A stretch of 64,000 bases of DNA from a virus (Duplodnaviria > Caudoviricetes), in the IMG/VR virus record IMGVR_UViG_3300047297_000146, positions 1,835-65,834 of that record, one strand, 5' to 3'. The position numbers were made by a program, and so were the translations under genes. Positions 9,221 through 42,600 of the stretch are shown piece after piece (position 1 is the stretch's first letter; every line of letters begins with the position of its first letter). The notes beneath the pieces are model-generated. The model worked only from the letters and a program-made list of their open reading frames with translations. It was not told the origin of the DNA and did not search any database.

Positions 9221-9834
9221 TTACCGTATTTTGGTAATTTTGTCTTTAGCCTTACTAGCTGCGAGACCAGCCTTGTCTCCATATTTAGCAGCGTTATTCA
9301 ATAGGAGGGTTTGTGGATGCGTTTTGGAAACAAAACCTGCAAAATCTGTTATCTTTTTATCAACTGTGTTTACGGTTTTTTGTGTAGCGCTACCTTTATA
9401 CCAGCTTGGAGCTTTAGGTAATCGCCCACCAATGTTAATCGTATTATCTGCTAAGTCGTAAAGCATTGGGTTTACAAAGTCATCCATTGCCATGTCAGTT
9501 GCAAAATTGATTCCAGCTTTAAGAGGATTAATTACTTTTGGCAAAAATCCTAAAGAACTAGTACCTCCAGTTTCTGGTATTAATGCAGCAGATGCAGCGT
9601 TGACTGCCATCTCTTCTAGTGCATCTTTACCAAAGTTTGCAAGCTCAACTAACCCAGTTCCTACCCCGGCATTAATCTTATTTCGTATTCCCGGCTTAGA
9701 AAATATATCTGCTTGATCTGGTGCTCTATTAAAGTACCAAGATGCACCTTCAGATATTCCACTGAGTAAGCGCTTTGGATTTGCTTTTACATCGTTAACT
9801 TTTGACATAATATATTTAGTAAAATCATTTTCCA
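9221..9834 (-). CDS. Hypothetical protein
   Basis: ORF; start at MENDFTK preferred because of GGAGG upstream. Confidence 0.55.
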
Positions 9835-12800
9835 TTTTTCTTAGCCTCCTCAGCACTGAATCTACGTATTGCTGCTTTACCATATTCTTTTAAAGCTAAA
9901 AGAAGTACAGCGGCAAAACTCATTTTCTTGGCTTTTCCAATTAATCCGCCAAACCCCTTAGCTTCCGCGTCGGCAATGATTTTGTTTTGAACTGCTTCAG
10001 GAATCTTAATACCCTCAACGTCTGGTGTGTTATCTTTACCTACCGACTTTGCGCTAATAGAAGTGTATACTTCTCCTTCACGAAAATACCTCTTGCTTGC
10101 TCGCACACGTGAAACCAATTGTGTTACTAACTCACGTACATTCTTGGTATCAATCTTGCCTTCATTGACTTGTTTTACAAAATCTAAATAATCTCGTTTT
10201 CCAATCCAGAATTGCTTACCTTCATATTCAAATCCAAGCCGATTACCAGCTTGTACTGGAGCTGATTCAAATGTTAGCCGTTTTACTATGGGTTCTTTTT
10301 TAATTAATTTTTGATCAATTAACTCAGCATCCATTCCAGCTGGTAACATTCGCGATTGTAAAAATGCACCTCTGTTGTATAACGGCACTTCAATAACTTT
10401 TCCACCGATGCGGTATGTTTCTGATGTAGTAATATCTTTTGTTGTTGTTTTTCCGTCATCACCAGTTGTTGTAACTGTTGCCCCTAAAACTGTATATCCG
10501 TCTTTTAATTTTTTAGATTTTCCATCAGCCTCAGTGGTAAACGTGTTAGCTGTTTGATTTTTTAATATCTTTCCATTAGGGCCTTTGACCTCATAACGAT
10601 ATTCATTTTGGTTTTCTGTTAATATGTCAAGATACTCAACTGTTGTATTGTTAATTTTCCATTGTAATGCGTCTGCGTAATTTGGCTTGTTCGGCATCCT
10701 GTTTTCTCTTACCCATTGCGGTGCCTTAATTGTAAACTTTGTTGCAGCCGGTACAACGTGTCCACCCGGTGTCAAAGTAAGGGCACGGCTGTCTTTTAGT
10801 TGTTTGTTAATTTCTTGCCGTGACGGTCCTGACGGTCCTGACTTCTTATCAAGTTCATTTGGGACTACTTCTGACCAAAGTGGATAATTCCTTAATACAT
10901 ATATTCGTGCTTCATCAGGTAAACCATAAGTATATTCAACCCATTCTTTGGCATTCATGGATTCCCATTTACTATCAATAGATTTCCAGAGATCGCCAAG
11001 TTTTACTTTTGTAGCATCGACATCTAAGCCAATCGCTTGCGCAATCTCAACCTCTCGCGCTAATCGTTTTTTATCATTAGCTGTTAGCTTTTTGTTCCAC
11101 TGCTGGAAAGCTTTTCGTTGATCTTCGGGACTCATGTATACCGTAGGTAAGTTAGTCCGTTCTATCTTCTTAGCCGACTCTCCAAATAAAACTTGAAACG
11201 GGACTTTATTACTAGCAAGATTTGCTTGATTGTAAGTTCTTGATTCCTTAGTGTTTAGTCTGTCAATTTTATTTAATTCAAATAATGGAGACGCACCTAA
11301 CTGTGGAGCAACCGATTTAAGATGCTTATTTAAAACAAGAGTAAGCGTGTCTAGTCGTTGACTTTCATTGTCTGTTAGATCATTATCTAACGCTTTATTT
11401 TTTAATGCCTTATATTGCGAATAAACAGTCTCAAGCGGTAAATCTTTTCTTGTTCGCCAATCACGTGCAACTGATTGTGCAGCTTTTATTGCTGGATCAT
11501 TTGAATTAAATTCTAAAAGCAACCCAGATAATTCACCTTCTGATGTTGCTCTTTTTAACTTTTCCGCAAGACCAGATAACTTTTTAGCTTCGCCTATCTT
11601 AGCAACGCGACCAGTATCTCCTTGTTTTAAAGCATCTACTTCTTTCTGTAATTTGTCCTGTAGTGGTCGTAACTTTTGAAAAACACTATTGCGTAACGCT
11701 GCTACATCATCCTTTTGTGTTGTCAGTGAAACTTTGCCCTTGGCATCGAGTATTGAAATTACTTCACCAACTGCATCACTAGGCAACGTCTTAGGGATTT
11801 TATTACCGTCTGCGTCCGTTACTTCTTTGACGTCATATCCAAACTTTTGTAAGAACGCAGCTTTTTCATTGCGTATCTTGACAGTGTCTTCAGCAGACAT
11901 TTCAGTTGTATTGAAAAACTTAGATATGTCATCTTGAATTTCTTGTGGCGTACGTATACGACCAGATCCTTTGCCAGCAAAAGCATCAATTCGATCTGAC
12001 ATGCGACTACGTAATGTGTCAGAAAATGTCAGTAATGCCTTACTGGTTTTATTGCCCTCAATTAACTTTTTGAGATACTCCTCAGGATTAGCTCGACCAG
12101 AATCTTTTAATCCTTTCAACACTTCAGCTTTTAAAGCTACAACGTTTTGTTTGTTTGTTTCGTTAAGGTTTTCATTAGATGTTAGATCAAGTAAATCGCG
12201 CACTGCGCTAGATAGTTTCGTCGCTCCTCTATTTACTCTAGTGCCTCTGGTAATACCACCATATGTATTACCTTTAGTTGTACTATCAAGAACTTTTAAT
12301 GCTGAATTTAAATCTACTTCAAAATTCTTTGCTTTGACAATTGCTGTTTCTAAACCAGTTTCAATTTTTTGTTTACGCAGTGGGCGCTGGCTATTATTAC
12401 CTTGCTTTACATACTCGGTAGCCACAACTGATACGGCTGTAAATTGACCTGTCTTTGCATCTTTTTTCCAATCAAACGTAAACTTGACATTCTCGTTTAA
12501 TTTATGACCAATAGTTTTTCCTTTGTCATCTTTTATTTCTACTAAATAACTAGGTGCTCTGGCATTGTCATTTACTAATTCGTAGTCTGGATTAATTACG
12601 GTCCAGTTAACGCCTTGTGCGCTTGCGAGAAAACTATTAAATCCTAATCGTGTAGGGCGACCAACACCAATAGTATTTGTTTCACCTTCTCGGTAACGAG
12701 TTAATCCCTGCTCGTAATAAAATTGCTTATCACTTAAAGATAGGCTGTCAAATCCTTTATTACGAACTTGCTCTCTTAGAGTTCTATAACGTTCGCCGAT

Positions 12801-15800
12801 TTTGTCGTCAGCATTTTGTACTGCTCTACGGTCATCTAGAATCTGACTATGAGATTCTTCAGTTGGGCTATTATATGCAAGGTCATATATACGGCTTTGT
12901 AGTAATGATAGTGCATCAGTTCCTTTTTGCTGCGCCCTTACCTTCTTGCGTTCTAATGCAGCAATTGCTTGATCAATTTTTCTTAAACCCTCTGGTGTTT
13001 GTCCAGATTTTGTTTTTTGTGTTTGTAACTTAGCAATGTCGGCATCAGTATTTTTTACTACAGCTGCTTGAATATCCGCATCTCGTTTTGCAGCATCAAG
13101 TGATTTACTAGTATTTTCATACCAGCGTTTAGCAAATTCAACGTAATCGTAATTTCCATTTTTTTCAGCACTTGCAATTTTTGCCGACAGCACTGTTTCA
13201 ATTTGTTTTGTGTCACCAGCTTTTTCACTACCACCAATGTCACCACCAAGGGCTTCAACAGCTTTATTGTAGATTTCTTTTCCGGAATCAACTTGCGCTC
13301 TGTTTGTAGATTCAGATGGCCTAAGGCGTTCCGAAACACTAGTATCTGCTGGTGCTGCATATCCAGCAGCAATACTGGTCATTGATGTACGATACTTTTT
13401 AAATACGTTATCAATGTCTGCGTCAGATACCGTGCCTTTCATCCATTCAGTTGTTGCGGATTCTACTATTTGCTCTCTAATGCTAGATACCATAGTGTCA
13501 AACTTTACTTTGTCTTCTGGCTTAATATCAAACTTAGTTAATGACGATTTGATCGAGTCATCAAACGCATTTAATACCTGTGTCTTAAAGTTACCTTTTG
13601 GAGCTTCTCCGCCAGCTACTTGTTCTCCAATACTGTTTGTTACGCCAAGTATGGATTTTTTTGCGTCGCCAAATATTGTGTTTACAATATCCATACTTCG
13701 CTGCACTCTATCAAGCGCTGTTCTTTCAGTCTTGCTTGACCGACCACCTACGGCACCCGTACCTCCGGGTATTGCATCTGCATTTTGCATTACTGTTCCA
13801 GCAGAAGTGGTAGGTATGTATCTTGTTCCACCTTCAGGTGTGACTTCCATGGTGGATGCCATGGTCCTGAATCTTGCCGGAGTTCCTATTTGCAAAGACT
13901 TTAATATCTTGGCTTTTAAATCTGTCTTGTTGTAATCAGATGCCTTGATGCCAAACATCGATAAAAAGACGTCATCAGTTTTTTTATCTACAGCTGTTGC
14001 TTCCTCTAACCGTGAAGCATACAAACCAACTAACGATGACATCTGCTGGGGAGTCATCTTTATGTTTCCGTTGTATGGAACTTTATCTACTGCACTTTTA
14101 ATTAAATTTTGCAGATCAGTACGGTATCTAGAGTTTTTACCAGCGTAATCAAACATGCCTTGCAAGACTTGTATGCGACTGATCTGATCTGACCGTACTG
14201 GTAATAATGGTTGGTTAAAATCATTCTCACCTGTAGGTAATTTAGCAAATGATAAACCAGACTGCTCAACTGCCGTACCTTCTAAGTTACGTGCTTGTAC
14301 AGCAATATCATTAAGTACGCGCTTCTTGCTCATCCATGAAGACTGCTGTGCGCCACCGGGTATTACTGCATCAACAGCTTTAAAGGTATCTGTAATTAAA
14401 CTGTATGTACCTTTTGATGTACCACCTGTGGTGACACCACCTGTTTTTCCAGCGCGTACAGAACTAATGTCTGAAGTAATCTTAGGCACAATATCAGATT
14501 CAATATCGTAACTATTCATGCCAGCAGTTACGAAATCATTGACATCATCAATGCTTTGGAATAACTTGCGTCCGACTTGTTCTAGTTGTGCTTCGCTAAG
14601 ATTTAAACCTGAGGCCATTGCACCAGCAAGTTCTGGGCGAGATGCAATACGTCCACTGTTTGCACCAGTAATACCTTGTGGTGCTTGTGTTTGACTTCCA
14701 GATACGTTGGAGCTTATGTCATACATGTAAGGATCTTCCTTACCTGCACGTGTCATATCCCCTACGAGGGTGCCCTCCTTCTGACCGTATAAAGCCTTTA
14801 CACCACCGGGGGTTAATGCGGAATACACATCGTCGTTATCAGGATTATTTGGGTCAAAACGTAAAGCTGCTTCATCACTCAATGATGGATCAATATCCAT
14901 CGCTCCAGATACGTATCGCTTCATGCGTGTCTGGCCAAAGAAATCTTTTAACTCTTGTGGAGTAACTTGAGTAGTTGGATCAGCACCAGCTTGCCCACCC
15001 ATTCGCTTTACTAAGTCTTGGGCTTTTTTTGTATTAAATAAACCTTGACCATCAAACTGCTCGTAGGCATCATCAATTAACGCTTGACCTTGTGGCGAAT
15101 CCATAAACATTTGGACTTGCCGATCTTTATTGCCCTCAATAGTTGGTTTTGATAAATCGCCATATGCCGATTCAAATATGTTTAAAGTCTTGCGTGAGTT
15201 ATTTGCTGTAGGAGATCCAGATTGCGCATCTGTTCTAAGTTCCGTAAATCGTCCTTGAACGTAATCGTATAGAACACCACCAATAAGTTTTTTACGTACA
15301 GCTTCTGGACTTGCATCTGCCTTTTCTTGATCAAGTTCAACAAGTGATTTATTTGTAACGTATGGCTTGATAACTTTTGATGCTTGTTGAGCTAGATAGG
15401 TTTGCGTTTTAGGATTTCTAAAATCTTCATCTGTATAGTCAGCAAGTACTTCTAGATAATCTTTTGCACCAGTAACACCAGCATTATCACCCTTCGCGTA
15501 GGCAGTAGTTAAATACATAACGCCATTTGCGTATGCATCTGCCATCTTTCGCTTAGTTGGTTCGCCAGTGTTATATAACTCTGCAGTTCTATTAATTAAC
15601 TGTAAGAACTTGTCATCACCAATGACGTCTGTCCTGTTTGTTCCAGCAGTTTGTTTTGATGCGCCAGTAGCCTTACCAAGCCACGACTGCATCTTAGTAA
15701 TCAGATCAGCACCAGATGCTAGTTGACCAGTACTTTGAGAACGCAAAAACATGTCTAATCCAGCTGCATGTTTTCCCGCACTAGCATCATCTATTCCACC

Positions 15801-16142
15801 TACATCAATGCGAGTACTAAGACCTGCACCTGATGCATTAGGCATGTCTACTATTCCCTTAGATAGACGAGCCATAGGGTCATAATCAAACCCACCCATA
15901 GGAGGTAAACCCGGAAGACTAGGCAATCCGGGCATACCCTGTGGCATTGCTGGCGCTGGCTGTGTAGTCTGTGGCTGTTGACTCGCCATTGGCGGTATTG
16001 ATGGAAGAGACGGTGGTTGTACTTGTTGCCCCTGTGTTGCAGGCACGGGACTACCGCCAGCAGGTGTTGCTGGTTGCTCTTTATCTTTATCCGACATAGG
16101 AGCCGAATTACCCATAATCAAACTAGACAGTAATGACGCCAT
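9825..16142 (-). CDS. Giant hypothetical protein, 2105 aa (possible internal virion protein)
   Basis: Uninterrupted ORF with GGAGGT RBS and Pro/Gln-rich N-terminus; no catalytic motif recognised. Confidence 0.7.
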   Translation of the reverse strand: MASLLSSLIMGNSAPMSDKDKEQPATPAGGSPVPATQGQQVQPPSLPSIPPMASQQPQTTQPAPAMPQGMPGLPSLPGLPPMGGFDYDPMARLSKGIVDMPNASGAGLSTRIDVGGIDDASAGKHAAGLDMFLRSQSTGQLASGADLITKMQSWLGKATGASKQTAGTNRTDVIGDDKFLQLINRTAELYNTGEPTKRKMADAYANGVMYLTTAYAKGDNAGVTGAKDYLEVLADYTDEDFRNPKTQTYLAQQASKVIKPYVTNKSLVELDQEKADASPEAVRKKLIGGVLYDYVQGRFTELRTDAQSGSPTANNSRKTLNIFESAYGDLSKPTIEGNKDRQVQMFMDSPQGQALIDDAYEQFDGQGLFNTKKAQDLVKRMGGQAGADPTTQVTPQELKDFFGQTRMKRYVSGAMDIDPSLSDEAALRFDPNNPDNDDVYSALTPGGVKALYGQKEGTLVGDMTRAGKEDPYMYDISSNVSGSQTQAPQGITGANSGRIASRPELAGAMASGLNLSEAQLEQVGRKLFQSIDDVNDFVTAGMNSYDIESDIVPKITSDISSVRAGKTGGVTTGGTSKGTYSLITDTFKAVDAVIPGGAQQSSWMSKKRVLNDIAVQARNLEGTAVEQSGLSFAKLPTGENDFNQPLLPVRSDQISRIQVLQGMFDYAGKNSRYRTDLQNLIKSAVDKVPYNGNIKMTPQQMSSLVGLYASRLEEATAVDKKTDDVFLSMFGIKASDYNKTDLKAKILKSLQIGTPARFRTMASTMEVTPEGGTRYIPTTSAGTVMQNADAIPGGTGAVGGRSSKTERTALDRVQRSMDIVNTIFGDAKKSILGVTNSIGEQVAGGEAPKGNFKTQVLNAFDDSIKSSLTKFDIKPEDKVKFDTMVSSIREQIVESATTEWMKGTVSDADIDNVFKKYRTSMTSIAAGYAAPADTSVSERLRPSESTNRAQVDSGKEIYNKAVEALGGDIGGSEKAGDTKQIETVLSAKIASAEKNGNYDYVEFAKRWYENTSKSLDAAKRDADIQAAVVKNTDADIAKLQTQKTKSGQTPEGLRKIDQAIAALERKKVRAQQKGTDALSLLQSRIYDLAYNSPTEESHSQILDDRRAVQNADDKIGERYRTLREQVRNKGFDSLSLSDKQFYYEQGLTRYREGETNTIGVGRPTRLGFNSFLASAQGVNWTVINPDYELVNDNARAPSYLVEIKDDKGKTIGHKLNENVKFTFDWKKDAKTGQFTAVSVVATEYVKQGNNSQRPLRKQKIETGLETAIVKAKNFEVDLNSALKVLDSTTKGNTYGGITRGTRVNRGATKLSSAVRDLLDLTSNENLNETNKQNVVALKAEVLKGLKDSGRANPEEYLKKLIEGNKTSKALLTFSDTLRSRMSDRIDAFAGKGSGRIRTPQEIQDDISKFFNTTEMSAEDTVKIRNEKAAFLQKFGYDVKEVTDADGNKIPKTLPSDAVGEVISILDAKGKVSLTTQKDDVAALRNSVFQKLRPLQDKLQKEVDALKQGDTGRVAKIGEAKKLSGLAEKLKRATSEGELSGLLLEFNSNDPAIKAAQSVARDWRTRKDLPLETVYSQYKALKNKALDNDLTDNESQRLDTLTLVLNKHLKSVAPQLGASPLFELNKIDRLNTKESRTYNQANLASNKVPFQVLFGESAKKIERTNLPTVYMSPEDQRKAFQQWNKKLTANDKKRLAREVEIAQAIGLDVDATKVKLGDLWKSIDSKWESMNAKEWVEYTYGLPDEARIYVLRNYPLWSEVVPNELDKKSGPSGPSRQEINKQLKDSRALTLTPGGHVVPAATKFTIKAPQWVRENRMPNKPNYADALQWKINNTTVEYLDILTENQNEYRYEVKGPNGKILKNQTANTFTTEADGKSKKLKDGYTVLGATVTTTGDDGKTTTKDITTSETYRIGGKVIEVPLYNRGAFLQSRMLPAGMDAELIDQKLIKKEPIVKRLTFESAPVQAGNRLGFEYEGKQFWIGKRDYLDFVKQVNEGKIDTKNVRELVTQLVSRVRASKRYFREGEVYTSISAKSVGKDNTPDVEGIKIPEAVQNKIIADAEAKGFGGLIGKAKKMSFAAVLLLALKEYGKAAIRRFSAEEAKKNGK

Positions 16143-21552: not shown

Positions 21553-21846
21553 AATCGAAAGTATAGCATGGTACAGAGTGTAGCAAAACCGTATAGTCAC
21601 TGCGTTCTAAAAGGATCTTAATGTTTTTTCTACGGGGAGAAACAGTTTCTCCGGTGGGAGAAATAGATAGAGGATAGCTGAGAATATATGTTTTGGAGTC
21701 ACTACTGTGCCGAGCCAACCGGGGCACCCCCTTGCCATGCCGGGGTCTAACCCCCGGTACCCCACCCCACGTGACTGTGCCCTAAATCCCGGTCTACATA
21801 CATGGTGTGGACGCCCTTCGGGGTCGTCCGGTTTACATTCCCTTTA

Positions 21847-21910
21847 TTATGTTCACATAATCATTCACCCGATTATGTCCGACGATGGCAGGTTATAGCC
21901 GAAAACACAA
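21847..21910 (+). ncRNA. Hammerhead ribozyme HH1, type III, variant core
   Basis: UGUUC^ (cut after 21854); stem I ACAUAAUC/GAUUAUGU; core CCGACGA (U4C) plus extra U; stem II GGC/GCC; GAAA; stem III AACA. Confidence 0.7.
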
Positions 21911-21927
21911 AAGGAAAACTAGACATA

Positions 21928-22278
21928 ATGGCAACGACAACGACAACGCCCGCAACGCCAGCGGTATACGCTGGCGCACAAACGGCGTACACTAAAGCGC
22001 TACAAAGTATTGACAATCACGTATCATTGAATATGCTGATTACAAAGTCAGTAGCAAACCGGATTATACAGCCCGTTGAATGTGCATACATTCAAGGTAT
22101 CAAACGTCGAAAAACAACCATTGACGCATACAAAGCGGTTATGCAAGTATTATCCGCTAAACTTGCGCCTGTGCTAGATACTACCGGCAAGGATTACGAT
22201 TCTATCGCCGCCAGCATAAAGGGATTGACGGCGGACGCGCTTGGGCAGGCAATGCTCGGTGTAGACGGGGACGCATAG
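21928..22278 (+). CDS. Early hypothetical protein
   Basis: AAGGA RBS then ATG at 21928 (MATTTTTPATP...). Confidence 0.7.
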   Translation: MATTTTTPATPAVYAGAQTAYTKALQSIDNHVSLNMLITKSVANRIIQPVECAYIQGIKRRKTTIDAYKAVMQVLSAKLAPVLDTTGKDYDSIAASIKGLTADALGQAMLGVDGDA

Positions 22279-22286
22279 TCCCCGCA

Positions 22287-22321
22287 GGCACCCGGTGTAA
22301 GATACCGGGTGCCACTTTTTT
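22287..22321 (+). terminator. Intrinsic terminator
   Basis: GGCACCCGGT/ACCGGGTGCC followed by ACTTTTTT. Confidence 0.7.
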
Positions 22322-22353
22322 CGGAAAAAACAAAAACAAAAGGATAATGAGTC

Positions 22354-22641
22354 ATGTCATTCGCACAACACACACAATCGGAATCACGTCCTGTTACACA
22401 GGTGGCAATATGGAAAGTGTTCACCATGTACGGACCAGACGCAGCAAGTAACGGAACAGACTTTGTCTACCAGATGTCAGACTGGACGGGTGGTCGCTTG
22501 CTCAATGACCTACTCCACGCAGCGAAGGGGCACACAGACACGCCACTGACGTTTGAAGACGCATACGTCATTGCAACATATCAGTGGAAGGGCAACCCTG
22601 ACACGTTCGAGTGGAAGGGCGCCATGTTCGAGAAGTGTTGA
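22354..22641 (+). CDS. Early hypothetical protein
   Basis: A-rich leader with AAGGA RBS; 95 aa. Confidence 0.65.
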   Translation: MSFAQHTQSESRPVTQVAIWKVFTMYGPDAASNGTDFVYQMSDWTGGRLLNDLLHAAKGHTDTPLTFEDAYVIATYQWKGNPDTFEWKGAMFEKC

Positions 22642-22674
22642 TGTCAATGGGGGGCGCAAGCCCCCTACCTTTTA

Positions 22675-22734
22675 ACGTGTCCTCATTGGGTGATGCCAAT
22701 GAGCTGACGAGGCCAGTCTACAGGCGAAACACGT
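22675..22734 (+). ncRNA. Hammerhead ribozyme HH2, type III
   Basis: ACGUGUC^ (cut after 22681); stem I CUCAUUGG/CCAAUGAG; CUGACGA; extra G; stem II GCC/GGC; GAAACACGU. Confidence 0.88.
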
Positions 22735-22760
22735 AACACACACAAAGGAAACTAACCGCC

Positions 22761-23003
22761 ATGCAATTCAATGGCACTTTCATGACGTCTAATCGTCGCT
22801 TCAGCTTCTCAATCACAACCCCAACTGCATTGACGCAGACAACGATCAAGATAACGAGCGCACAAGGTGAGTTCTCGGTAACACGTCACATTGACACCTA
22901 CGCTGAACTCGAAAAGAACATGATTGCGGTAGCGCGTATCATCGGTGGCGGTGATGACGCAAGCGTATTGGCGTTGGCTCGGATGATTGGAGAAAGCAAG
23001 TGA
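22761..23003 (+). CDS. Early hypothetical protein
   Basis: AAAGGA RBS; 80 aa. Confidence 0.65.
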   Translation: MQFNGTFMTSNRRFSFSITTPTALTQTTIKITSAQGEFSVTRHIDTYAELEKNMIAVARIIGGGDDASVLALARMIGESK

Positions 23004-23131
23004 AGAAGTTCCTGAACAATGGTCTGGTGCGGTTTATCCTTGATGGATTGACTGCAGTCATTATCGTCGCTGGTTTGCTGTTCATCTATTGGGGGCTGTC
23101 AACACTCCCGATGCATAGATACGGTCACTAA
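23000..23131 (+). CDS. Small single-TM protein (43 aa, not in ORF track)
   Basis: GTGA overlap with upstream stop, GGAG RBS; MKKFLNNGLVRFILDGLTAVIIVAGLLFIYWGLSTLPMHRYGH. Confidence 0.6.
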   Translation: MKKFLNNGLVRFILDGLTAVIIVAGLLFIYWGLSTLPMHRYGH

Positions 23132-23162
23132 GAACTACGGGGTGGTGCTAACGTGCCACCCC

Positions 23163-23221
23163 AACGTGTATCTATAGGGTGATTCCTATGGACTGATGAG
23201 GCAGTCAAGCCGAAACACGTT
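23163..23221 (+). ncRNA. Hammerhead ribozyme HH3, type III
   Basis: AACGUGUA^ (cut after 23170); stem I UCUAUAGG/CCUAUGGA; CUGAUGA; stem II GGC/GCC; GAAACACGUU; canonical core. Confidence 0.93.
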
Positions 23222-23262
23222 TAAAACCTTGTCAGATATCAAAACAAACAAAGAGGTATCCC

Positions 23263-23886
23263 ATGGATAACCAGTTCCGTTTCAACATATCCTTTAGCCC
23301 ATACGGGGCTATCCCGTCACCCGTCGTGTACACCGATGCAAAGCATGATGTAGATAACATCTGTGCTGCAATCCTCGGAGAATCATTACGCCGTCGCACG
23401 TACTATGACGCTCAGGTTGAAGAGCGTCCATACGTAGACGAATATGCAATGAGCGATGCTCGTATGTATCTGCAATGCGCATTCATGTGCGTAGTACAAG
23501 AACAGTACGGTGAGGCGCTTAACTGGTATGACATGGCACACAAGAACTTCTGTGGCTACATTGACCCAGCCACCGTATCCACAATGCACGGCGCCGTTTG
23601 GATGGTGCGTGATGATGAGAGTTGGGGTGTGTACATGAAGGCTGATGTTGTTACCGGGTTTGGTAACACAACTGCCAACATTAAAATCGCCGACATCGAA
23701 CCGCACCCATATAAACCGGGCAAGTACACAGCCACTGTACTCGACCGCATGGAAGAGTTGAGGTATGGACAAGACGGGTGGTTTGCGCACCTTGATAAAT
23801 CAAGAGCTGCATACAAACAACAACAGATCGATGCTAAGGGCATCGACTTTACATACGATGACGATGTTGAAGGAGAAACAAAGTGA
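23263..23886 (+). CDS. Early hypothetical protein
   Basis: GAGGT RBS; 207 aa. Confidence 0.7.
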   Translation: MDNQFRFNISFSPYGAIPSPVVYTDAKHDVDNICAAILGESLRRRTYYDAQVEERPYVDEYAMSDARMYLQCAFMCVVQEQYGEALNWYDMAHKNFCGYIDPATVSTMHGAVWMVRDDESWGVYMKADVVTGFGNTTANIKIADIEPHPYKPGKYTATVLDRMEELRYGQDGWFAHLDKSRAAYKQQQIDAKGIDFTYDDDVEGETK

Positions 23887-24323
23887 AGAAGAAGAGTTTA
23901 TTGAAACGCATTGAGACCATTTGGCTTGCCAAGCAGGTCAAGAACGAGATGATCAACTTCCACAAGGGTGTTGATGAGTGCGTTAGGGATTTCGGCTACA
24001 GGAAGGAGGAGATGTTGGACTTCCCTAAGTGGCCATACGCACTCAAGACCCCAGACGGGTCTTACGTTTGCACACCCAACCCAGACAAGAGACTGATGCT
24101 GTGTCTGTTCCTTACTGCTGATGAGGCAGAACAGATGAAAGCAATGTTTCATGCGTCAACTGGGAATGACTGCGAGGTTGTGCAACCAGAGCACAACTTC
24201 CCATTCAGGAAGGACATTGTCCTTATGATCAAGGACTGTGGGTTTGAGATGTGGTACGGCACATATCGCAGTGTGTACCACCTGCAAACCATCAAGAGTA
24301 TGGAAGCCACTGGGCTTCTTTGA
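23883..24323 (+). CDS. Early hypothetical protein
   Basis: GTGA coupling, AGGAG RBS; 146 aa. Confidence 0.7.
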   Translation: MKKKSLLKRIETIWLAKQVKNEMINFHKGVDECVRDFGYRKEEMLDFPKWPYALKTPDGSYVCTPNPDKRLMLCLFLTADEAEQMKAMFHASTGNDCEVVQPEHNFPFRKDIVLMIKDCGFEMWYGTYRSVYHLQTIKSMEATGLL

Positions 24324-24383
24324 GACGAAACTTCTCCCATGCGGAGAAGTCTGTGGGACATAGCTACCCCACACTGATGAGTC
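24324..24383 (+). ncRNA. Hammerhead ribozyme HH4, type II
   Basis: GAC-GAAA-CUUCUCC/GGAGAAG-UC^ (cut after 24351)-UGUGGG/CCCACA-CUGAUGA-GUC; canonical core. Confidence 0.92.
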
Positions 24384-24423
24384 AGGCTTAACAAGCAGCT
24401 GCATAAGAACAAAGGAAACACTT

Positions 24424-24630
24424 ATGAAAAACACAAGCGAGATTCTCGCACTTCAGACAGAAATCAGTGAACTATCACGTGGCATGTACAAAACATGGTC
24501 ACGCACGGGTAACACACTACGTGCCAATGAGGAAACCCTCAAGAGTCTAACAAGGAAGCTAGACCAAATGATTCGTGATGCACACAATGCTGACGAAAAA
24601 GCAGCACGTAGCAGGAGGTTAGGTTACTAA
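24424..24630 (+). CDS. Early hypothetical coiled-coil protein
   Basis: AAAGGA RBS; 68 aa. Confidence 0.65.
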   Translation: MKNTSEILALQTEISELSRGMYKTWSRTGNTLRANEETLKSLTRKLDQMIRDAHNADEKAARSRRLGY

Positions 24631-24995
24631 TGGATTTACGCTCTTTCAAAACACTGAAGACAATACTCCAAAGCCCAAAAGAAAACATTGAGGCGATGGA
24701 CCCCATTGGTTATGACATCGACATGAGAACTAAACGTCATACACAACTAGAGGTCAATGAGTTTAGAGAAGATGTTGATAACTACATGAGACTTCATAAT
24801 GAGGCAAACTTTCGCGGGTACATGTACCCACCCACTACATGCGACAACCACAAATGTCCAATGTACAACGGGCAGAGATGGACATTTGTTTTCTACATGG
24901 ATGGTGAGGGATACAAACACTCATGGTCATTCAAGTCAGATGACAACTCCATTGATACCGAGTGCGGTGACCACTCATGGTTACCGGGTATCTAA
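24630..24995 (+). CDS. Early hypothetical protein
   Basis: TAATG coupling, GGAGG RBS. Confidence 0.65.
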   Translation: MDLRSFKTLKTILQSPKENIEAMDPIGYDIDMRTKRHTQLEVNEFREDVDNYMRLHNEANFRGYMYPPTTCDNHKCPMYNGQRWTFVFYMDGEGYKHSWSFKSDDNSIDTECGDHSWLPGI

Positions 24996-38895: not shown

Positions 38896-39675
38896 CAATG
38901 TCACTGTTTTGTTTACATCGTTGATTGTAATATAACATCCCAACCAAAGAGATAAGTCCCTGACACCAATGTAACGCTTGCCATCTCGCGTAATCAAAGG
39001 TGCAGGGATGATCTCACTACCCCACATAGCGCCATCGTCTGTCGCTTTCAAATTAACAAGCACCTCATGTGGTGTAAAAAACATGTTCAAAGCATTACGC
39101 AATGGAGCGTACACACGACTTGCATGGTTAATACATTCAACCTGACGATTCTTTACTTTTAAAACCCACTCTACATCCTGCTGTATCATTTTTGTCCAAC
39201 GAATAAACTTAAGACTATCAGCAGTTCTATTTGCATAGACATTAGGACGCCGAGCAACTAAGTATCCATTTCGACTACCGTTGTTATTACTGTTGCCTTC
39301 TATGCTTCCAATAACCCCATCAGCACCTTCAGTGTCAACAATGCCAATGTGATATGCGTCATCACCACGATGGCACACAAACAAGTCTCCGGCAGCCGGA
39401 GATGATGTCATTAGCTGTCGTTTTCTTGCCCAGCTATAAACCACGTCACAATCAGCAGTAATAGGCACAGGCCAGTCAATATTATGAGCATCTTGAAACT
39501 CTTTGCCGATAGCAGAAACAAATGAGCAACACCAAAAGCTTCCTAATGGAACGTTGCTTTGACGATTCCATTTATCAATTAAATCCCCACGATTACTACC
39601 AAATGGCTCTTCCGACACACCAACATATTTATTAGCAAGAGTCAAAAACTCTTTTGCTAAATCATTACTATTCAT
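38884..39675 (-). CDS. Endolysin: CHAP domain plus putative cell-surface-binding domain
   Basis: WCCSFV, HIGIV and IEGNS (CHAP); C-terminal YAPLR and YIGVRDL repeats resemble the copper-amine-oxidase N-terminal domain. Confidence 0.8.
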   Translation of the reverse strand: MNSNDLAKEFLTLANKYVGVSEEPFGSNRGDLIDKWNRQSNVPLGSFWCCSFVSAIGKEFQDAHNIDWPVPITADCDVVYSWARKRQLMTSSPAAGDLFVCHRGDDAYHIGIVDTEGADGVIGSIEGNSNNNGSRNGYLVARRPNVYANRTADSLKFIRWTKMIQQDVEWVLKVKNRQVECINHASRVYAPLRNALNMFFTPHEVLVNLKATDDGAMWGSEIIPAPLITRDGKRYIGVRDLSLWLGCYITINDVNKTVTLSKP

Positions 39676-42600
39676 TATTGCCTCCTCCGTTATATTGCAT
39701 TAGTGCTCTGGTCACATTGTTCAATGGTAACCGTATCTTCTGCTTCTCTTTTTCTCTAGCTTGAGATTCTGATGCTGCAATTCCAAACGTGGCGTTACTT
39801 GGATCTTTAACATCCCAGCCAGTAAATATGTTTTGAGGTTCTTTGCGCATCATTTCAAAAATATTTGGATAGTCGTACCAGTCTTTAATCATGTACGCAA
39901 AACGTCCAAATGTCATACTACTGTTACCTACTTGGACTGGCTCCCTGTTAACCATCCTGTATCCCTTAGGCTCATACATAACGTTAAACCCTAATAGCTT
40001 TGGAACAGTAGCCTTCCACCATAATTCATTAGCTTGTTCCTTACTTACTCGTAATTGATTAGGAACATTACCAGAACGAATCATTTGATCTATAGACATA
40101 TTCTGCTTAGCTGCTTCAGAGAACATAGCTAACTTTAATAAGTCTTCGTAATAAGATCTCTGATGAGCAAGCGTCATTGTGTCCATTGCTAATCGACTTT
40201 GCTGTGGAAATAAATACCCAGTCGGATGGAAATAAAATGGTGCTCTTACATCATTTTCTACAGCAACTTTTAATCCAGAATCACGTTCAAATGTAGGCAA
40301 ACCCTTGAATGACTTGCCAGTTAAATTACTAATGATGAATTGACCACCATTGTGGATTTTGTTTTTAATTAACTGTTTTGCTAATCCATTAAGAGCAGCT
40401 TCAGTTTTCTCAATTGGTCCGTAGTTTTCTTGAGAGAAAGCTTCAGCAAGAGGTTTTATATTTTGAGCAAGACGCCCAAGGACTGGTAACTGTACAGTCC
40501 AGTTGTCGTTTAATTCAACATAACCTAGCCTCTTACTCATAACATCTAGCCAACCAGTCTTATCTTCTTCTTCATCTGGTCGTTCTCGTTGATGACGATA
40601 GAAGTTAGCTGTTGCAGTTATCGCACCAACAATAGCCCACGTCGCTAACGATTTGCCAATATCTGCCTTCCTTTGCCGAGTAGCCCACTCTGTACCGTAT
40701 TGCTCCATACGTAAGTCACTCTCAATATCAAAGACATCTCCCTTTAACCACCAAGGTCCTTTATCTGTAGCAACTCTAGCCCATTCATTAATAGACTTTT
40801 TAGCAGCAGTTCCCGGTCCGCTAAATCCGTAGTACTGATTAAAATTCCTTGTGTATGACGGTGCAGTCATAAAGTAATTAAACACACTGGAAAGAGATCT
40901 CCAAATAGGAGCCTGTGTTTTACTCTTAGCGTGAGATCCAATTCCAATTTCTTTAGCCACTAACGATATACGAGCCTTAATATCTCGATCAATTTCATAG
41001 TCTTTTAAATCTACATTGTTAGGATCTAACTGACGTTCTCGTGCTCGTTTGACAGTAAACAATGCCTGTTGAAGCATAGATAAATCAAGAATCAACTGAC
41101 GAGTCATTTCAGCTCTGCGCCATAGTGGCACAGTAGCTCCAAGGACACCAGCTGTAAATACGTTTTCACGTTCACTTTCCCATGGAGTATCTATGATTGA
41201 CTTATATCGTCCCGGAGATGCAAGCATGTTTGCCTTTGATCGTCTATACCAGTCAGAGTAACTACTCTGCATGTAATACGTGTCAATCAACTCAGACATA
41301 CTAATAGGTGTACCCATGCTGTGTCTTGCATTGAATCGATCAACTGTATGGTTCATGATGAAATCGTAATAGCGAGAGTCTAAATTCATAGCGCTATCAG
41401 TCCATTGATTACCACCCGCTAACCTTCTTTGTTGACGAGAGCCATGCCACAGACTACCAAGTACTAAGCCAAGGTCTGCGCTAGAAAATGTAACAAGGGA
41501 TGGAGCGGATAAAGCAAGAGCTTTAAAGGTTTGATAAGGAGCACGTGCTAGTAATGAACCAAGCTGAATTGCAAATGATGATAAGTCAAGACCTAACACA
41601 CCTCGGAATATCTGCTGCAATGGACTCAGTACATATTTATTTACGTTGTATGCTGCCTCATTTACCTTTGGTGACATTGAGAAATAAACATCGTTATCTT
41701 TACCGTCTAATGTAATTGCTTCACCATCTTTGACGGAAGTCTCATAAGGAGTTCCCTTCAATGGGTCAAGAACTAACTTGTCATATATGTCACTTGAAAC
41801 TTGCAATACAAGGTTATCTTTTCCACCAGACTGAAGCATGCCACCTTTTGTCTTAGGGTCCCTATGATAAGTAACTGTTTCAGGTACACGATATGCTCGT
41901 TCCTTAGCGTCTATAGCAAGATCATCGAGTGCACCCTTAGTTGATTCAACGTATGGGTCTTCTGAATCATTGACGTGTAATGCGCTTTGCTTACGTAATT
42001 CGGGAATGTTATCCGGATTACCATCAAAGTAACGTGGACTACTTGAGAACCAAGTGCCAGTGCTTGCATCCTGCATTAAGTCAGATTCATTGTTGAACAA
42101 CATCTTGTGCCCAACCTTATTGAACTCAGCATGCTTTGGATTATCAGTATTCCTGTCTTGCGCTAACAATAACTTAGCAACATGATATTCCTCTTGCAAC
42201 ATACGATTGTCAATAATGCCCTGACGCTTTTCTTCAACTACAGTCATAGCACTTGAACGCTCAAATGGATTCAAGACCATGTCCATGAGACCAATAGGCA
42301 TCTGAGTACGATAGTTATCTGCATTCTGCCAGTTGTCACTTGTATCTACAAAAGACCATTTAGCTTCTTTGCTATCATACTCACCCTTAATAACATGCAT
42401 GCCGGTGTTTGGAGTTGGCACATCAGGATCAAATATTGGTGCATTTAATTCCGATATCTCAGCAACAGATATCGGCAACATAAAGTAAATGGGTTCACCA
42501 GATAGGTATCCGTAACTAGCTGCGCGTTCACCAGCTAATGCAACAAGTGCATCATTAACCTTTTCGACTCCATCAAATCCAAATAATTGTTTAGCATTAA

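What the first reader, a model, noticed from the sequence alone, without database searches (positions are those of the whole stretch)
21809..24420. Four hammerhead ribozymes punctuate the early region into two-gene pieces
Seen: four hammerhead folds on the sense strand in intergenic gaps, with cuts after 21854, 22681, 23170 and 24351. Exactly two ORFs lie between consecutive cut sites (827, 489 and 1181 nt). HH2 and HH3 differ in stems I and II while keeping the pairing. Each ribozyme is followed by an A/C-rich spacer and an RBS. Established: hammerheads leave 5'-OH and 2',3'-cyclic-phosphate ends and have been reported in phage sequences. Inference: a protein-free mRNA maturation system, analogous to RNase III processing of T7 early RNA, giving pieces resistant to 5'-monophosphate-dependent decay. 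A terminator at 22287 may further split the first piece.
Basis: partly seen in the sequence, partly recalled or inferred. Interest (0 to 1): 0.92.

Follow-up and report, generated by a model that had tools for sequence, protein, structure and literature searches.

The report
Hammerhead ribozyme array in phage operon
An uncultured 66-kb phage carries four self-cutting hammerhead RNAs between its small early genes, a well-conserved example of the clustered phage hammerheads first described in 2011, and the leader copy has an unusual core in every related phage.

Summary
A strict hammerhead descriptor finds exactly three hits in 64 kb, both strands. HH1 (cut after 21854) has C instead of U at core position 4. 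A hit of that grade is also rare by chance (4 of 150 shuffles).

Six related IMG/VR phages keep the elements, with compensatory changes in the stems and in the type II pseudoknot. Rfam's cut-offs miss all four.

New here:
- The leader position holds a hammerhead fold in all 7 phages, always with a non-consensus core (C4, U3/A8, or an extra base at N7).
- A GC hairpin precedes every type III cut site.
- The genes between the ribozymes are mosaic.
- "Two genes per piece" is not conserved.

This scan has noted similar phage hammerhead arrays on other DNA before. Verdict: a real feature, a new member of a known kind, of moderate interest.

The parts
21694..21849 (+). Conserved C-rich non-coding leader upstream of HH1. 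It would be released as an RNA of about 160 nt if transcription starts near 21694 and HH1 cuts. The start site is inferred, not shown.
   Evidence: Highly conserved in 7 of 7 related phages. The pattern of two invariant blocks is found only in records of this clade (9 stretches). RNAalifold gives 23 pairs, 5 of them with double changes, and a weak covariation term of -1.38.
21809..21829 (+). GC-rich UUCG-loop hairpin about 25 nt before the HH1 cut site.
   Evidence: Read. Conserved in the relatives, with UUCG or UCCG loops.
21850..21907 (+). HH1: type III hammerhead variant. Cut after C21854 (UUC|A). Stem I 21855-21862/21871-21878. Core CCGACGA 21879-21885 (C at position 4). Extra U at 21886. 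Stem II 21887-21889/21898-21900. GAAA 21901-21904. Stem III 21850-21853/21904-21907.
   Evidence: Four versions in relatives: 98.4% of cells paired, 8 of 16 pairs with double changes, 0 of 500 shuffles as good. C4 is invariant in those four.
21928..22278 (+). Gene A (116 aa, unknown function).
   Evidence: ORF (internal ATG of 21802..22278, preceded by AAGGAAA). No Pfam or PHROG hit. A homolog at 70% identity only in L039.
22267..22322 (+). Hairpin over the stop codon of gene A (22267-22283), followed by an intrinsic terminator (stem 22287-22313, then a T run).
   Evidence: 12 pairs, 8 GC, tail ACTTTTTTCG. An equivalent double hairpin plus U run follows the first gene in 7 of 7 phages.
22354..22641 (+). 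Gene B (95 aa, unknown function).
   Evidence: No family hit. 44-46% identity in L010 and L039.
22649..22665 (+). GC hairpin (G5-6C / tetraloop) followed by ACCUUUU, 16 nt before the HH2 cut. Either a weak terminator or a 3'-end protecting hairpin.
   Evidence: The same hairpin with different tetraloops (GCAA, UUAG, GAAA, GUAA) stands before the HH2-type site in 7 of 7 phages.
22675..22734 (+). HH2: type III hammerhead. Cut after C22681 (GUC|C). Stem I 8 bp, loop GUGAUG, core CUGACGA, extra G after A9, stem II GCC/GGC, stem III 6 bp.
   Evidence: the MFE is the hammerhead fold. CM R1 gives 73.8 bits. Covariation.
22761..23131 (+). Genes C (22761-23003, 80 aa) and D (23000-23131, 43 aa, hydrophobic).
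   Evidence: Conserved at 53-91% in four relatives.
23139..23162 (+). 10-bp GC hairpin that abuts HH3.
   Evidence: Read. Conserved in all four phages that have HH3.
23163..23221 (+). HH3: canonical type III hammerhead. Cut after A23170 (GUA|U). Stem I 9 bp, core CUGAUGA, stem II GGC/GCC, stem III 7 bp.
   Evidence: z = -3.2; the MFE is the hammerhead fold. R1 gives 83.9 bits. RF00008 gives 16.2 bits.
23263..24323 (+). Genes E (23263-23886, 207 aa) and F (23883-24323, 146 aa).
   Evidence: F is conserved in all relatives at 35-99%. No Pfam or PHROG hit. The atlas gives only weak leads.
24324..24388 (+). HH4: type II hammerhead that starts at the base after the stop codon of gene F. Stem II GAC 24324-24326 / GUC 24381-24383. 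Stem III hairpin 24330-24350. Cut after C24351. Stem I 24352-24357/24368-24373. Core CUGAUGA 24374-24380. Pseudoknot: loop I AGCU 24362-24365 with 3' tail GGCU 24385-24388.
   Evidence: RF02276 36.3 bits, E 7.5e-5. Descriptor hit. In 7 versions 100% of cells pair, and two pseudoknot pairs and two stem I pairs show double changes.
24424..24630 (+). Gene G (68 aa), the first gene after HH4.
   Evidence: 66-79% identity in four relatives.

Best explanation
Four cis-acting hammerhead ribozymes are built into the rightward early operon of an uncultured tailed phage of about 66 kb. There are three of type III and one of type II.

Proposed mechanism, as the RNA is made:
1. Each element folds and cuts itself after position 17.
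2. The upstream product ends in a GC-rich hairpin plus a 2',3'-cyclic phosphate. For HH4 that hairpin is the ribozyme's own stem III.
3. The downstream product starts with a 5'-OH, the compact ribozyme body, an unstructured A/C-rich leader and a Shine-Dalgarno site.

The operon RNA is thereby divided into separately handled units: leader | A(-B) | C-D | E-F | G.... Their decay and translation no longer depend on neighbouring sequence. This works like RNase III processing of T7 early RNA, but without a protein.

HH1 sits in the 5' leader and has a non-consensus core in every related phage, so it is probably the slowest or a conditional cutter.

Shown here: the folds, their non-random occurrence, their conservation and covariation, and the conserved flanking hairpins and terminator. 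Inferred: cleavage itself, co-transcription of the whole block, and the effect on stability and translation.
For: 1. Three strict hammerheads against 0.027 expected, all on the gene strand in intergenic gaps.
2. Orthologous elements occur in six related IMG/VR phages whose flanking proteins are only 35-99% identical.
3. Covariation:
- Ten type III versions: 100% of cells paired, 12 of 16 pairs with double changes, 0 of 500 shuffles as good, and 24-53% paired when the partners are slid.
- Four HH1 versions: 98.4% paired, 8 of 16 pairs with double changes.
- Seven HH4 versions: 100% paired, with a covarying loop I / tail pseudoknot.
4. The MFE folds of HH2 and HH3 are the hammerhead fold.
5. A GC hairpin lies 8-25 nt before every type III cut in all relatives. 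The spacers are A/C-rich and carry a Shine-Dalgarno site.
6. The descriptor agrees with Rfam where Rfam is sensitive: type II copies in unrelated phage contigs pass the gathering score (L018 x3, L029 x2).
7. Precedent: Perreault et al. 2011 (passages read) saw clustered hammerheads flanking genes in prophages, obtained the expected products from three arrays in vitro, and proposed transcript processing. cyPhyRNA-seq detected in vivo cleavage of type II hammerheads near phage-like genes in D. vulgaris (abstract and passages).
Against: - There is no RNA evidence for this phage (one search listed no RNA holder).
- No element reaches its Rfam gathering score.
- HH1 has C4, described as strongly lowering activity in vitro. 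On its own with only 4 bp of stem III it does not fold into stem III in the MFE.
- A strong, conserved terminator after gene A means that much transcription may stop before HH2-HH4. No promoter has been identified, so 'one long early transcript' is an assumption.
- The number of ribozymes varies from 2 to 4 among relatives, so no single site is indispensable.
- 5'-OH ends stabilise RNA in RNase E-type hosts but can be targets of RNase J1 (recalled). The host is unknown.
Confidence: 0.6

Rival explanations
1. The ribozymes are active, but cleavage is gated rather than constitutive. HH1 has an attenuated core in the leader. HH4 begins at the stop codon of gene F, so a terminating ribosome would cover stem II and GAAA. 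Together they would act as timers or switches that couple cutting to Mg2+, time after infection, or translation of the upstream gene.
For: - The HH1 position holds three different non-consensus cores in 7 of 7 phages, while HH2-HH4 are canonical everywhere.
- HH4 abuts or overlaps the stop codon in 7 of 7.
- Perreault et al. suggest that slower phage variants may become active under particular conditions.
Against: - No ligand pocket or alternative fold was found.
- U3/A8 is a compensated variant reported as active, so not all HH1-locus cores need be slow.
- RBS masking by an extended stem III is no better than in shuffles (fraction of shuffles as good 0.03-0.85).
Confidence: 0.13
2. The hammerheads and their hairpins are conserved junctions of a mosaic early region. 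Their main evolutionary role would be as shared 60-nt homology blocks at which gene cassettes are exchanged between phages, or as passengers of such cassettes. RNA cleavage would be secondary.
For: - Window against L007: HH1 is 56 of 58 identical and HH2 59 of 60 (read), yet genes A and B between them have no homolog. C, D, E and F are 80-99% identical.
- HH4 columns are 85% identical across phages whose F proteins share 35-64%.
- Perreault et al. note that the gene identities between clustered hammerheads are not constant.
Against: Compensatory base changes that keep the pairing show selection on the RNA fold, not just on DNA identity. Recombination junctions do not need a catalytic core.
Confidence: 0.1
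3. The 489-nt HH2-HH3 fragment circularises. Its 3' end (AACGUGUA>p) can pair with the 3' strand of stem III of HH2 inside the same fragment, rebuilding a complete hammerhead. This would hold the 5'-OH and 2',3'-cP ends together for ribozyme or RtcB ligation and give a circular mRNA for genes C and D.
For: HH2 and HH3 share the stem III sequence ACGUGU/ACACGU in the window, L006/L007 and L010. This is 3 of the 4 genomes that have both elements.
Against: - In L039/L025, stem III of HH2 is UGUUAUGU/ACGUAACA. The chimeric helix would then be 4 bp with two wobbles (read).
- The shared stem is also the stem of the single type III element of L011, so it is most simply inherited.
- Perreault et al. 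looked for circular or spliced products in other arrays and found none.
Confidence: 0.05
4. For HH1 only: it is not a working ribozyme. It would be a decayed copy or a structural leader element, and in this genome it overlaps a sigma-70-like promoter whose transcripts would start inside it.
For: - TTTACA-18-CATAAT at 21832-21861 matches 10 of 12.
- The core has C4.
- R1 scores HH1 at only 10 bits, E 2.7.
Against: - The promoter-like hexamers are not conserved; L014/L015 has CATTCA in place of CATAAT. Such matches are as frequent in shuffles (10 found against 9.2 expected).
- Stems I and III covary across four C4 versions.
- A hammerhead fold is kept at this position in 7 of 7 phages.
- A natural U4C viroid hammerhead works in vivo.
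Confidence: 0.15

Closest known systems
Clustered hammerhead ribozymes flanking genes in prophages and phages (Perreault et al. 2011, PLoS Comput Biol, PMC3088659; passages read)
   Same: Several hammerheads of mixed types lie in the gene orientation and flank single genes or short blocks of variable identity in a phage genome. The proposed role is the same: cutting long phage transcripts into shorter mRNAs.
   Different: - This clade is uncultured and none of its four elements passes an Rfam cut-off.
- The array is conserved across seven genomes with a fixed architecture: hairpin, ribozyme, A/C-rich leader, Shine-Dalgarno site.
- The leader copy always has a non-consensus core.
Type II hammerhead, Rfam RF02276, with loop I / 3'-tail pseudoknot
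   Same: HH4 aligns over the full 66-position model (36.3 bits). It has the canonical core and a 4-bp pseudoknot between loop I and the tail after stem II, which covaries.
   Different: It scores 0.7 bits below the gathering score. Open stem II is only 3 bp and starts directly after a stop codon.
Type III hammerheads (Rfam RF00008; viroid, satellite and plant types)
   Same: The topology is the same: stem III open, stems I and II capped. HH2 and HH3 have a canonical core.
   Different: - Very low scores against RF00008 (16.2 bits for HH3).
- HH1 and HH2 carry an extra nucleotide after A9.
- The context is an mRNA, not a replicating circular RNA.
Natural U4C hammerhead of a viroid (Ambros and Flores 1998, cited as ref. 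30 in PMC3088659; only the citing sentence and the reference line were seen; the paper itself is not held)
   Same: C at core position 4 in a naturally maintained hammerhead.
   Different: Here C4 is fixed in four phage lineages with covarying stems, rather than being a variant within a viroid population.
HHphage of haloviruses HF1/HF2 (discussion of PMC3088659)
   Same: A variant-core hammerhead lies just upstream of the first ORF of an early polycistronic transcript, as HH1 does. There the mapped 5' end lies within 3 nt of the cut site.
   Different: A different core variant and an archaeal host. HH1 lies 73 nt before the ATG and behind a conserved leader of about 160 nt.
RNase III processing of phage T7 early mRNA, and synthetic ribozyme insulators such as RiboJ (both recalled, not looked up)
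   Same: Works alike: a polycistronic RNA is cut between cistrons into units with defined, structured ends.
   Different: Not a member. No long RNase III-type duplexes are present (the hairpins are 5-10 bp). The cut is made by the RNA itself and leaves 5'-OH and 2',3'-cP ends.

Membership tests
Hammerhead ribozyme (class) | Three helices I, II and III around one junction, in the hammerhead order. | tested here: met
   All four elements. The MFE of HH2 and HH3 is this fold. For HH4 and HH1 the MFE shows the capped stems, while the short open stem (3-4 bp) is not formed in isolation.
Hammerhead ribozyme (class) | Consensus core C3 U4 G5 A6 N7 G8 A9 / G12 A13 A14 / A15.1-U16.1 / H17, for HH2, HH3 and HH4. 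| tested here: met
   Strict descriptor hits at 22681, 23170 and 24351. HH2 has one extra G after A9.
Hammerhead ribozyme (class) | Consensus core, for HH1. | tested here: not met
   The core is CCGACGA, with C at position 4 and an extra U after A9. C4 is conserved in four lineages. I therefore file HH1 as a hammerhead variant, not as a consensus member.
Hammerhead ribozyme (class) | Helices supported by compensatory changes in homologs. | tested here: met
   12 of 16 pairs; 8 of 16; 4 of 21; stems II and III of HH4 never vary. In each, 0 of 500 shuffles reached the covariation score.
Hammerhead ribozyme (class) | Tertiary contact between stems I and II (loop-loop or pseudoknot). | tested here: inconclusive
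   - HH4: the 4-bp pseudoknot pairs in 7 of 7, with two double-change pairs but probably a single evolutionary event.
- Type III: loop 1 UGAY with loop 2 GUCA pairs in 90% of cells, with one-sided changes only.
- HH1 locus: ACC x GGU swaps sides to GGU x ACC.
Hammerhead ribozyme (class) | Mg2+-dependent self-cleavage giving 5'-OH and 2',3'-cyclic phosphate. | not testable with these tools
   No RNA run was listed. A bench assay is needed.
Rfam RF02276 / RF00008 | Score at or above the curated gathering cut-off. | tested here: not met
   HH4 scores 36.3 against 37. HH3 scores 16.2 against 48.5. HH1 and HH2 are not reported. No element of this clade passes in six relatives' loci.
Clustered phage hammerheads (Perreault 2011) | Two or more hammerheads in the gene orientation that flank single genes or short blocks of a phage genome, with variable gene identities. 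| tested here: met
   The phage nature is shown by portal, terminase and DnaB hits and by the virus record.
Clustered phage hammerheads (Perreault 2011) | Cleavage products of the expected sizes from the polycistronic RNA. | not testable with these tools
   Needs in vitro transcription.
RNase III processing sites (T7 type) | A long imperfect duplex cut by host RNase III. | tested here: not met
   The intergenic hairpins are 5-12 bp, and the elements carry ribozyme cores. The resemblance is functional only.

The most novel reading that the evidence does not exclude
The HH2-HH3 pair makes a circular mRNA. Both ribozymes share stem III, so the excised 489-nt RNA carrying genes C and D can rebuild a complete hammerhead across its own ends. 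It could then be sealed by the ribozyme's reverse reaction or by a host RtcB-type ligase. This would give a phage-encoded, exonuclease-proof circular message.

A second, less radical unexcluded reading: HH1 is a deliberately attenuated ribozyme that releases the conserved leader of about 160 nt as a separate regulatory RNA.
Probability: 0.05. Interest if true: 0.8.

Novelty: new member of a known kind. Interest (0 to 1): 0.36.

Why it matters
Reviews still describe the purpose of bacterial and phage hammerheads as undefined (PMC6765202, passage read).

This clade offers a compact, well-conserved test case:
- seven genomes with 2-4 ribozymes at orthologous junctions;
- a fixed unit of hairpin, ribozyme, A/C-rich leader and Shine-Dalgarno site;
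- a conserved terminator;
- a leader ribozyme that is non-consensus in three different ways.

That last point is a natural experiment on whether slow cores are selected.

It also shows that annotation at Rfam cut-offs misses all four elements, so ribozyme punctuation of phage operons is probably under-counted. The finding does not open a new kind of system.

Tried and rejected
- Rfam at gathering cut-offs on the window: only two tRNAs. At E<=1 on the whole window there is no twister, pistol, hatchet, HDV-like or other ribozyme.
- blastn of the region against 50,697 phage records: no match.
- Portal protein against cultured phages: at most 24.6% identity. Portal against genome contigs: none confirmed. 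The host remains unknown.
- RNA evidence: no RNA holder was listed for 21600-24600, so read laying could not be used.
The duplexes are -1 to -9 kcal/mol, and 3-85% of shuffled upstream strands do as well. Only 1 of 15 elements is below 5%. Not supported.
- 'Two ORFs per piece' as a rule: rejected. Relatives have 2-4 sites and differing ORF counts.
- The sigma-70-like promoter over HH1: not conserved, and such matches occur at chance frequency.
- The two extra relaxed-descriptor hits on the minus strand (39198-39327 and 2184-2276) lie inside long ORFs. They match the chance expectation of about one per window and were dropped.
- The type III pattern in bacterial genomes: 29 matches, of which only 1 is a full hammerhead. 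That compares with 28 of 31 in viral contigs. It gave no host lead.
- Pfam and PHROGs for genes A-H and the upstream gene: no hit above a cut-off. Atlas look-alikes for E and F scored 0.77 and 0.91, which are leads only.
- MAFFT alignment A1 of all 14 type III elements mis-registered HH1 and was not used for counts. In A2 the stem II register differs between HH2 and HH3, so 4 of 10 rows show one unpaired cell there.
- The supplements of PMC3088659 (figures S1-S8 and the alignments) could not be seen. They may already contain relatives of these elements, or the C4 variant.

Full report
CONTEXT. The window is bases 1835-65834 of a 65,834-base IMG/VR virus record that CheckV rates as complete. 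It encodes a portal, a large terminase and a DnaB-type helicase. It also has two tRNAs on the minus strand and two giant ORFs without family hits. Genes left of 21600 run leftward. From 21928 a long block of small ORFs runs rightward towards the replication genes. The finding lies at the head of that rightward block. No cultured phage is close: blastn gave no match and the portal is at most 24.6% identical. No host could be assigned.

THE OBSERVATION. I wrote a descriptor for all three hammerhead topologies. It requires the core CUGANGA, GAAA, the A15.1-U16.1 pair, H at position 17, stems I>=4, II>=3 and III>=4 bp, and 0-1 extra base after A9.

- type III, cut after 22681;
- type III, cut after 23170;
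- type II, cut after 24351.

In 150 dinucleotide shuffles the mean was 0.027 hits per window, and no shuffle had two.

HH1 (cut after 21854) appears only if one core change is allowed, because its core is CCGACGA. Relaxed hits are expected about once per window. With a stem I of 8 bp or more, only 4 of 150 shuffles had one.

All four elements lie in intergenic gaps. The cut-to-cut distances are 827, 489 and 1181 nt, with two ORFs in each interval. The spacers to the next ATG are 68-85% A+C and carry AAGGA or GAGG. The terminator at 22287-22313 is found.

Rfam does not report these elements at its cut-offs. HH4 reaches 36.3 bits against 37 for RF02276 (E 7.5e-5 in a 4.5-kb search). HH3 reaches 16.2 against 48.5 for RF00008. 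HH1 and HH2 are not listed. The descriptor itself is sound, because type II hits it makes in unrelated phage contigs do pass Rfam's cut-off (L018 x3, L029 x2).

RELATIVES AND COVARIATION. Searches with genes E and F found six distinct related viral records. Several were held as more than one locus.

Ribozyme positions relative to the HH4 cut:

| Record | Positions |
|---|---|
| window | -2497, -1670, -1181, 0 |
| L007 | -2592, -1677, -1188, 0 |
| L039 | -2671, -1827, -1346, 0 |
| L010 | -1468, -1003, 0 |
| L015 | -2504, -1614, 0 |
| L037 | -1511, 0 |
| L040 | -1380, 0 |

In L007 and L040 the strict descriptor misses HH4 because stem I has a one-base bulge.

Covariation counts:
- Ten distinct HH2/HH3-type sequences, stems I and III: 100% of 145 cells pair and 12 of 16 pairs show changes on both sides. 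No shuffle of 500 reaches the covariation score, and slid partners pair in only 24-53% of cells.
- Four HH1 sequences: 98.4% paired and 8 of 16 pairs with double changes.
- Seven HH4 sequences: 100% paired. Stems II and III are invariant. Stem I and the loop I / 3'-tail pseudoknot (AGCU or AGCC with GGCU, against GACC with GGUC) each have two double-change pairs.
- Loop 1 (UGAY) of the type III elements can pair with loop 2 (GUCA or GUUA) in 90% of cells, but only one-sided changes are seen.

A covariance model built from the ten sequences finds only HH3 (83.9 bits) and HH2 (73.8 bits) in the window. In five whole related records it finds only the known type III sites, plus two weak matches: HH1 of L039's record (18.4 bits, E 0.012) and an unplaced match in L037's record (16.6 bits, E 0.026). 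The ribozymes are therefore confined to this operon.

THE LEADER RIBOZYME. Aligning the divergent intergenic region of all seven phages showed that L010, L012 and L013 also have a hammerhead fold at the HH1 position. The one-change descriptor had found none there. RNAfold returns the hammerhead fold for L010 and L013.

Their cores differ from HH1 and from the consensus:
- UUGAUAA in L010 and L012. This is the U3/A8 pair, which Perreault et al. describe as a natural compensated variant.
- CUGAAUGA in L013, with an extra base at N7.

The leader position thus holds a hammerhead in 7 of 7 phages, always with a non-consensus core: C4 in four, U3/A8 in two, and an N7 insertion in one. In contrast, all 10 HH2/HH3-type versions and all 7 HH4 versions have the consensus core. 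The loop 1 / loop 2 complementarity is kept but changes sides, from ACC x GGU to GGU x ACC.

Perreault et al. state that a U4C viroid variant is much less active in vitro yet sufficient in vivo. I infer that the leader copy is a slow or conditional cutter. This is not shown.

FLANKING ARCHITECTURE.
- A GC-rich hairpin lies 8-25 nt upstream of every type III cut site in every relative. At HH4 the ribozyme's own stem III plays that role.
- The hairpin before HH2 is followed by a short U tract and scores as a weak terminator.
- After the first gene, all seven phages have a hairpin over the stop codon followed by a strong terminator. Its stem differs between lineages but keeps pairing.
- HH4 starts at or one base inside the stop codon of gene F in 7 of 7.
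- Upstream of HH1 lies a C-rich leader of about 160 nt. It is more conserved than the genes, is found only in this clade, and has weak covariation support. No Rfam family matches it.

GENE CONTENT. None of genes A-H has a Pfam or PHROG assignment. The region is mosaic. Against L007, genes C, D, E and F are 80-99% identical, but A and B have no homolog. HH1 and HH2 around A and B are nevertheless nearly identical (56 of 58 and 59 of 60, read). F ranges from 35% to 99% identity.

HOW IT MOST LIKELY WORKS. The elements are selected RNA folds with catalytic cores. They lie in the sense strand, between cistrons, each followed by an open leader and a ribosome-binding site.

The best-supported reading is co-transcriptional self-cleavage that turns the operon RNA into units with defined ends. 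The 3' end of each unit would be a hairpin plus a cyclic phosphate. The 5' end would be a 5'-OH plus the folded ribozyme body.

Where a hairpin with a U tract precedes the ribozyme, terminated and read-through transcripts would end up with almost the same 3' end. Both points are inference.

The conserved terminator after gene A means that the downstream pieces depend on read-through or on a promoter I did not find. Whether 5'-OH ends stabilise the RNA depends on the host's RNases (recalled), and the host is unknown.

COMPARISON WITH WHAT IS KNOWN.
- Perreault et al. 2011 (PMC3088659; passages and section 8 read) reported that multiple hammerheads often flank single genes or short gene blocks in prophages. 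They proposed processing of long phage transcripts. They obtained the expected products from three arrays in vitro, and for one array (A. tumefaciens) showed self-cleavage in E. coli.
- A 2019 review still calls the purpose undefined (PMC6765202).
- Type II hammerheads near phage-like genes cleave in vivo in D. vulgaris (PMC8782182).
- My own pattern scan shows that arrays are common: 14 of 31 viral loci that match a loop 1/core motif hold two or more strict hammerheads on one strand.
- This scan's notebook lists 528 earlier notes on phage hammerhead arrays in at least 380 genomes.

The finding is therefore a new member of a known kind. The parts I did not find in the papers I read are the always-variant leader ribozyme and the fixed unit of hairpin, ribozyme and leader. 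I ran four literature searches and could not see the supplements.

VERDICT. Interest is moderate, at 0.36.

Noticed in passing
window 21694-21849 (+); L007 2345-2503, L010 2007-2187, L012 1884-2039, L013 1974-2119: A C-rich non-coding leader of about 160 nt upstream of HH1 is more conserved than the neighbouring genes in 7 of 7 phages (invariant blocks such as CACCCCCTTGCCA and ACGTGACT). It occurs only in this clade. RNAalifold gives long-range pairs but little covariation, and there is no Rfam match. It could be a structured RNA released by HH1, or a DNA-level control region.
   Followed up: partly
window 21646-21663 and 21682-21690: A conserved hairpin TTTCTCC-GGTG-GGAGAAA and an invariant AATATNTG box lie upstream of the leader in all seven phages. 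The box is a candidate -10 element for the rightward operon. No -35 element was recognised.
   Followed up: no
window 22267-22322 and the equivalent sites in six relatives: A double hairpin (one over the stop codon, then a strong terminator with a U run) follows the first rightward gene in 7 of 7 phages. The stem sequences differ between lineages but keep pairing. Gene A may therefore be a largely separate transcription unit.
   Followed up: partly
window 24321-24326 and six relatives: The type II hammerhead begins at the base after the upstream stop codon (TGA, TAA or TAG), or one base inside it, in 7 of 7 phages. A terminating ribosome would therefore cover stem II and the GAAA strand.
   Followed up: partly
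window 21928-24995 against L007, L010, L039, L015, L037 and L040: The early region is mosaic. Genes between conserved ribozymes are replaced by unrelated genes (A and B are absent from L007), while the ribozymes stay nearly identical. The ribozymes may mark module boundaries.
   Followed up: partly
L029 3063, 4060, 5522, 8616; L018 3997, 4739, 5822; L023 8343, 13447: Unrelated IMG/VR contigs that share the loop 1 GUGAYG motif carry arrays of three or four type II hammerheads, or mixed type I and II, on one strand. Five of these pass Rfam RF02276.
   Followed up: partly
window 39668-52462 (-) and 9825-16142 (-): ORFs of 4264 aa and 2105 aa have no PHROG family at E<=1e-5.
   Followed up: no
window 21832-21861 (+): A sigma-70-like match TTTACA-18-CATAAT (10 of 12) overlaps stem I of HH1. 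It is not conserved in L014/L015, and such matches occur at chance frequency in this region.
   Followed up: yes
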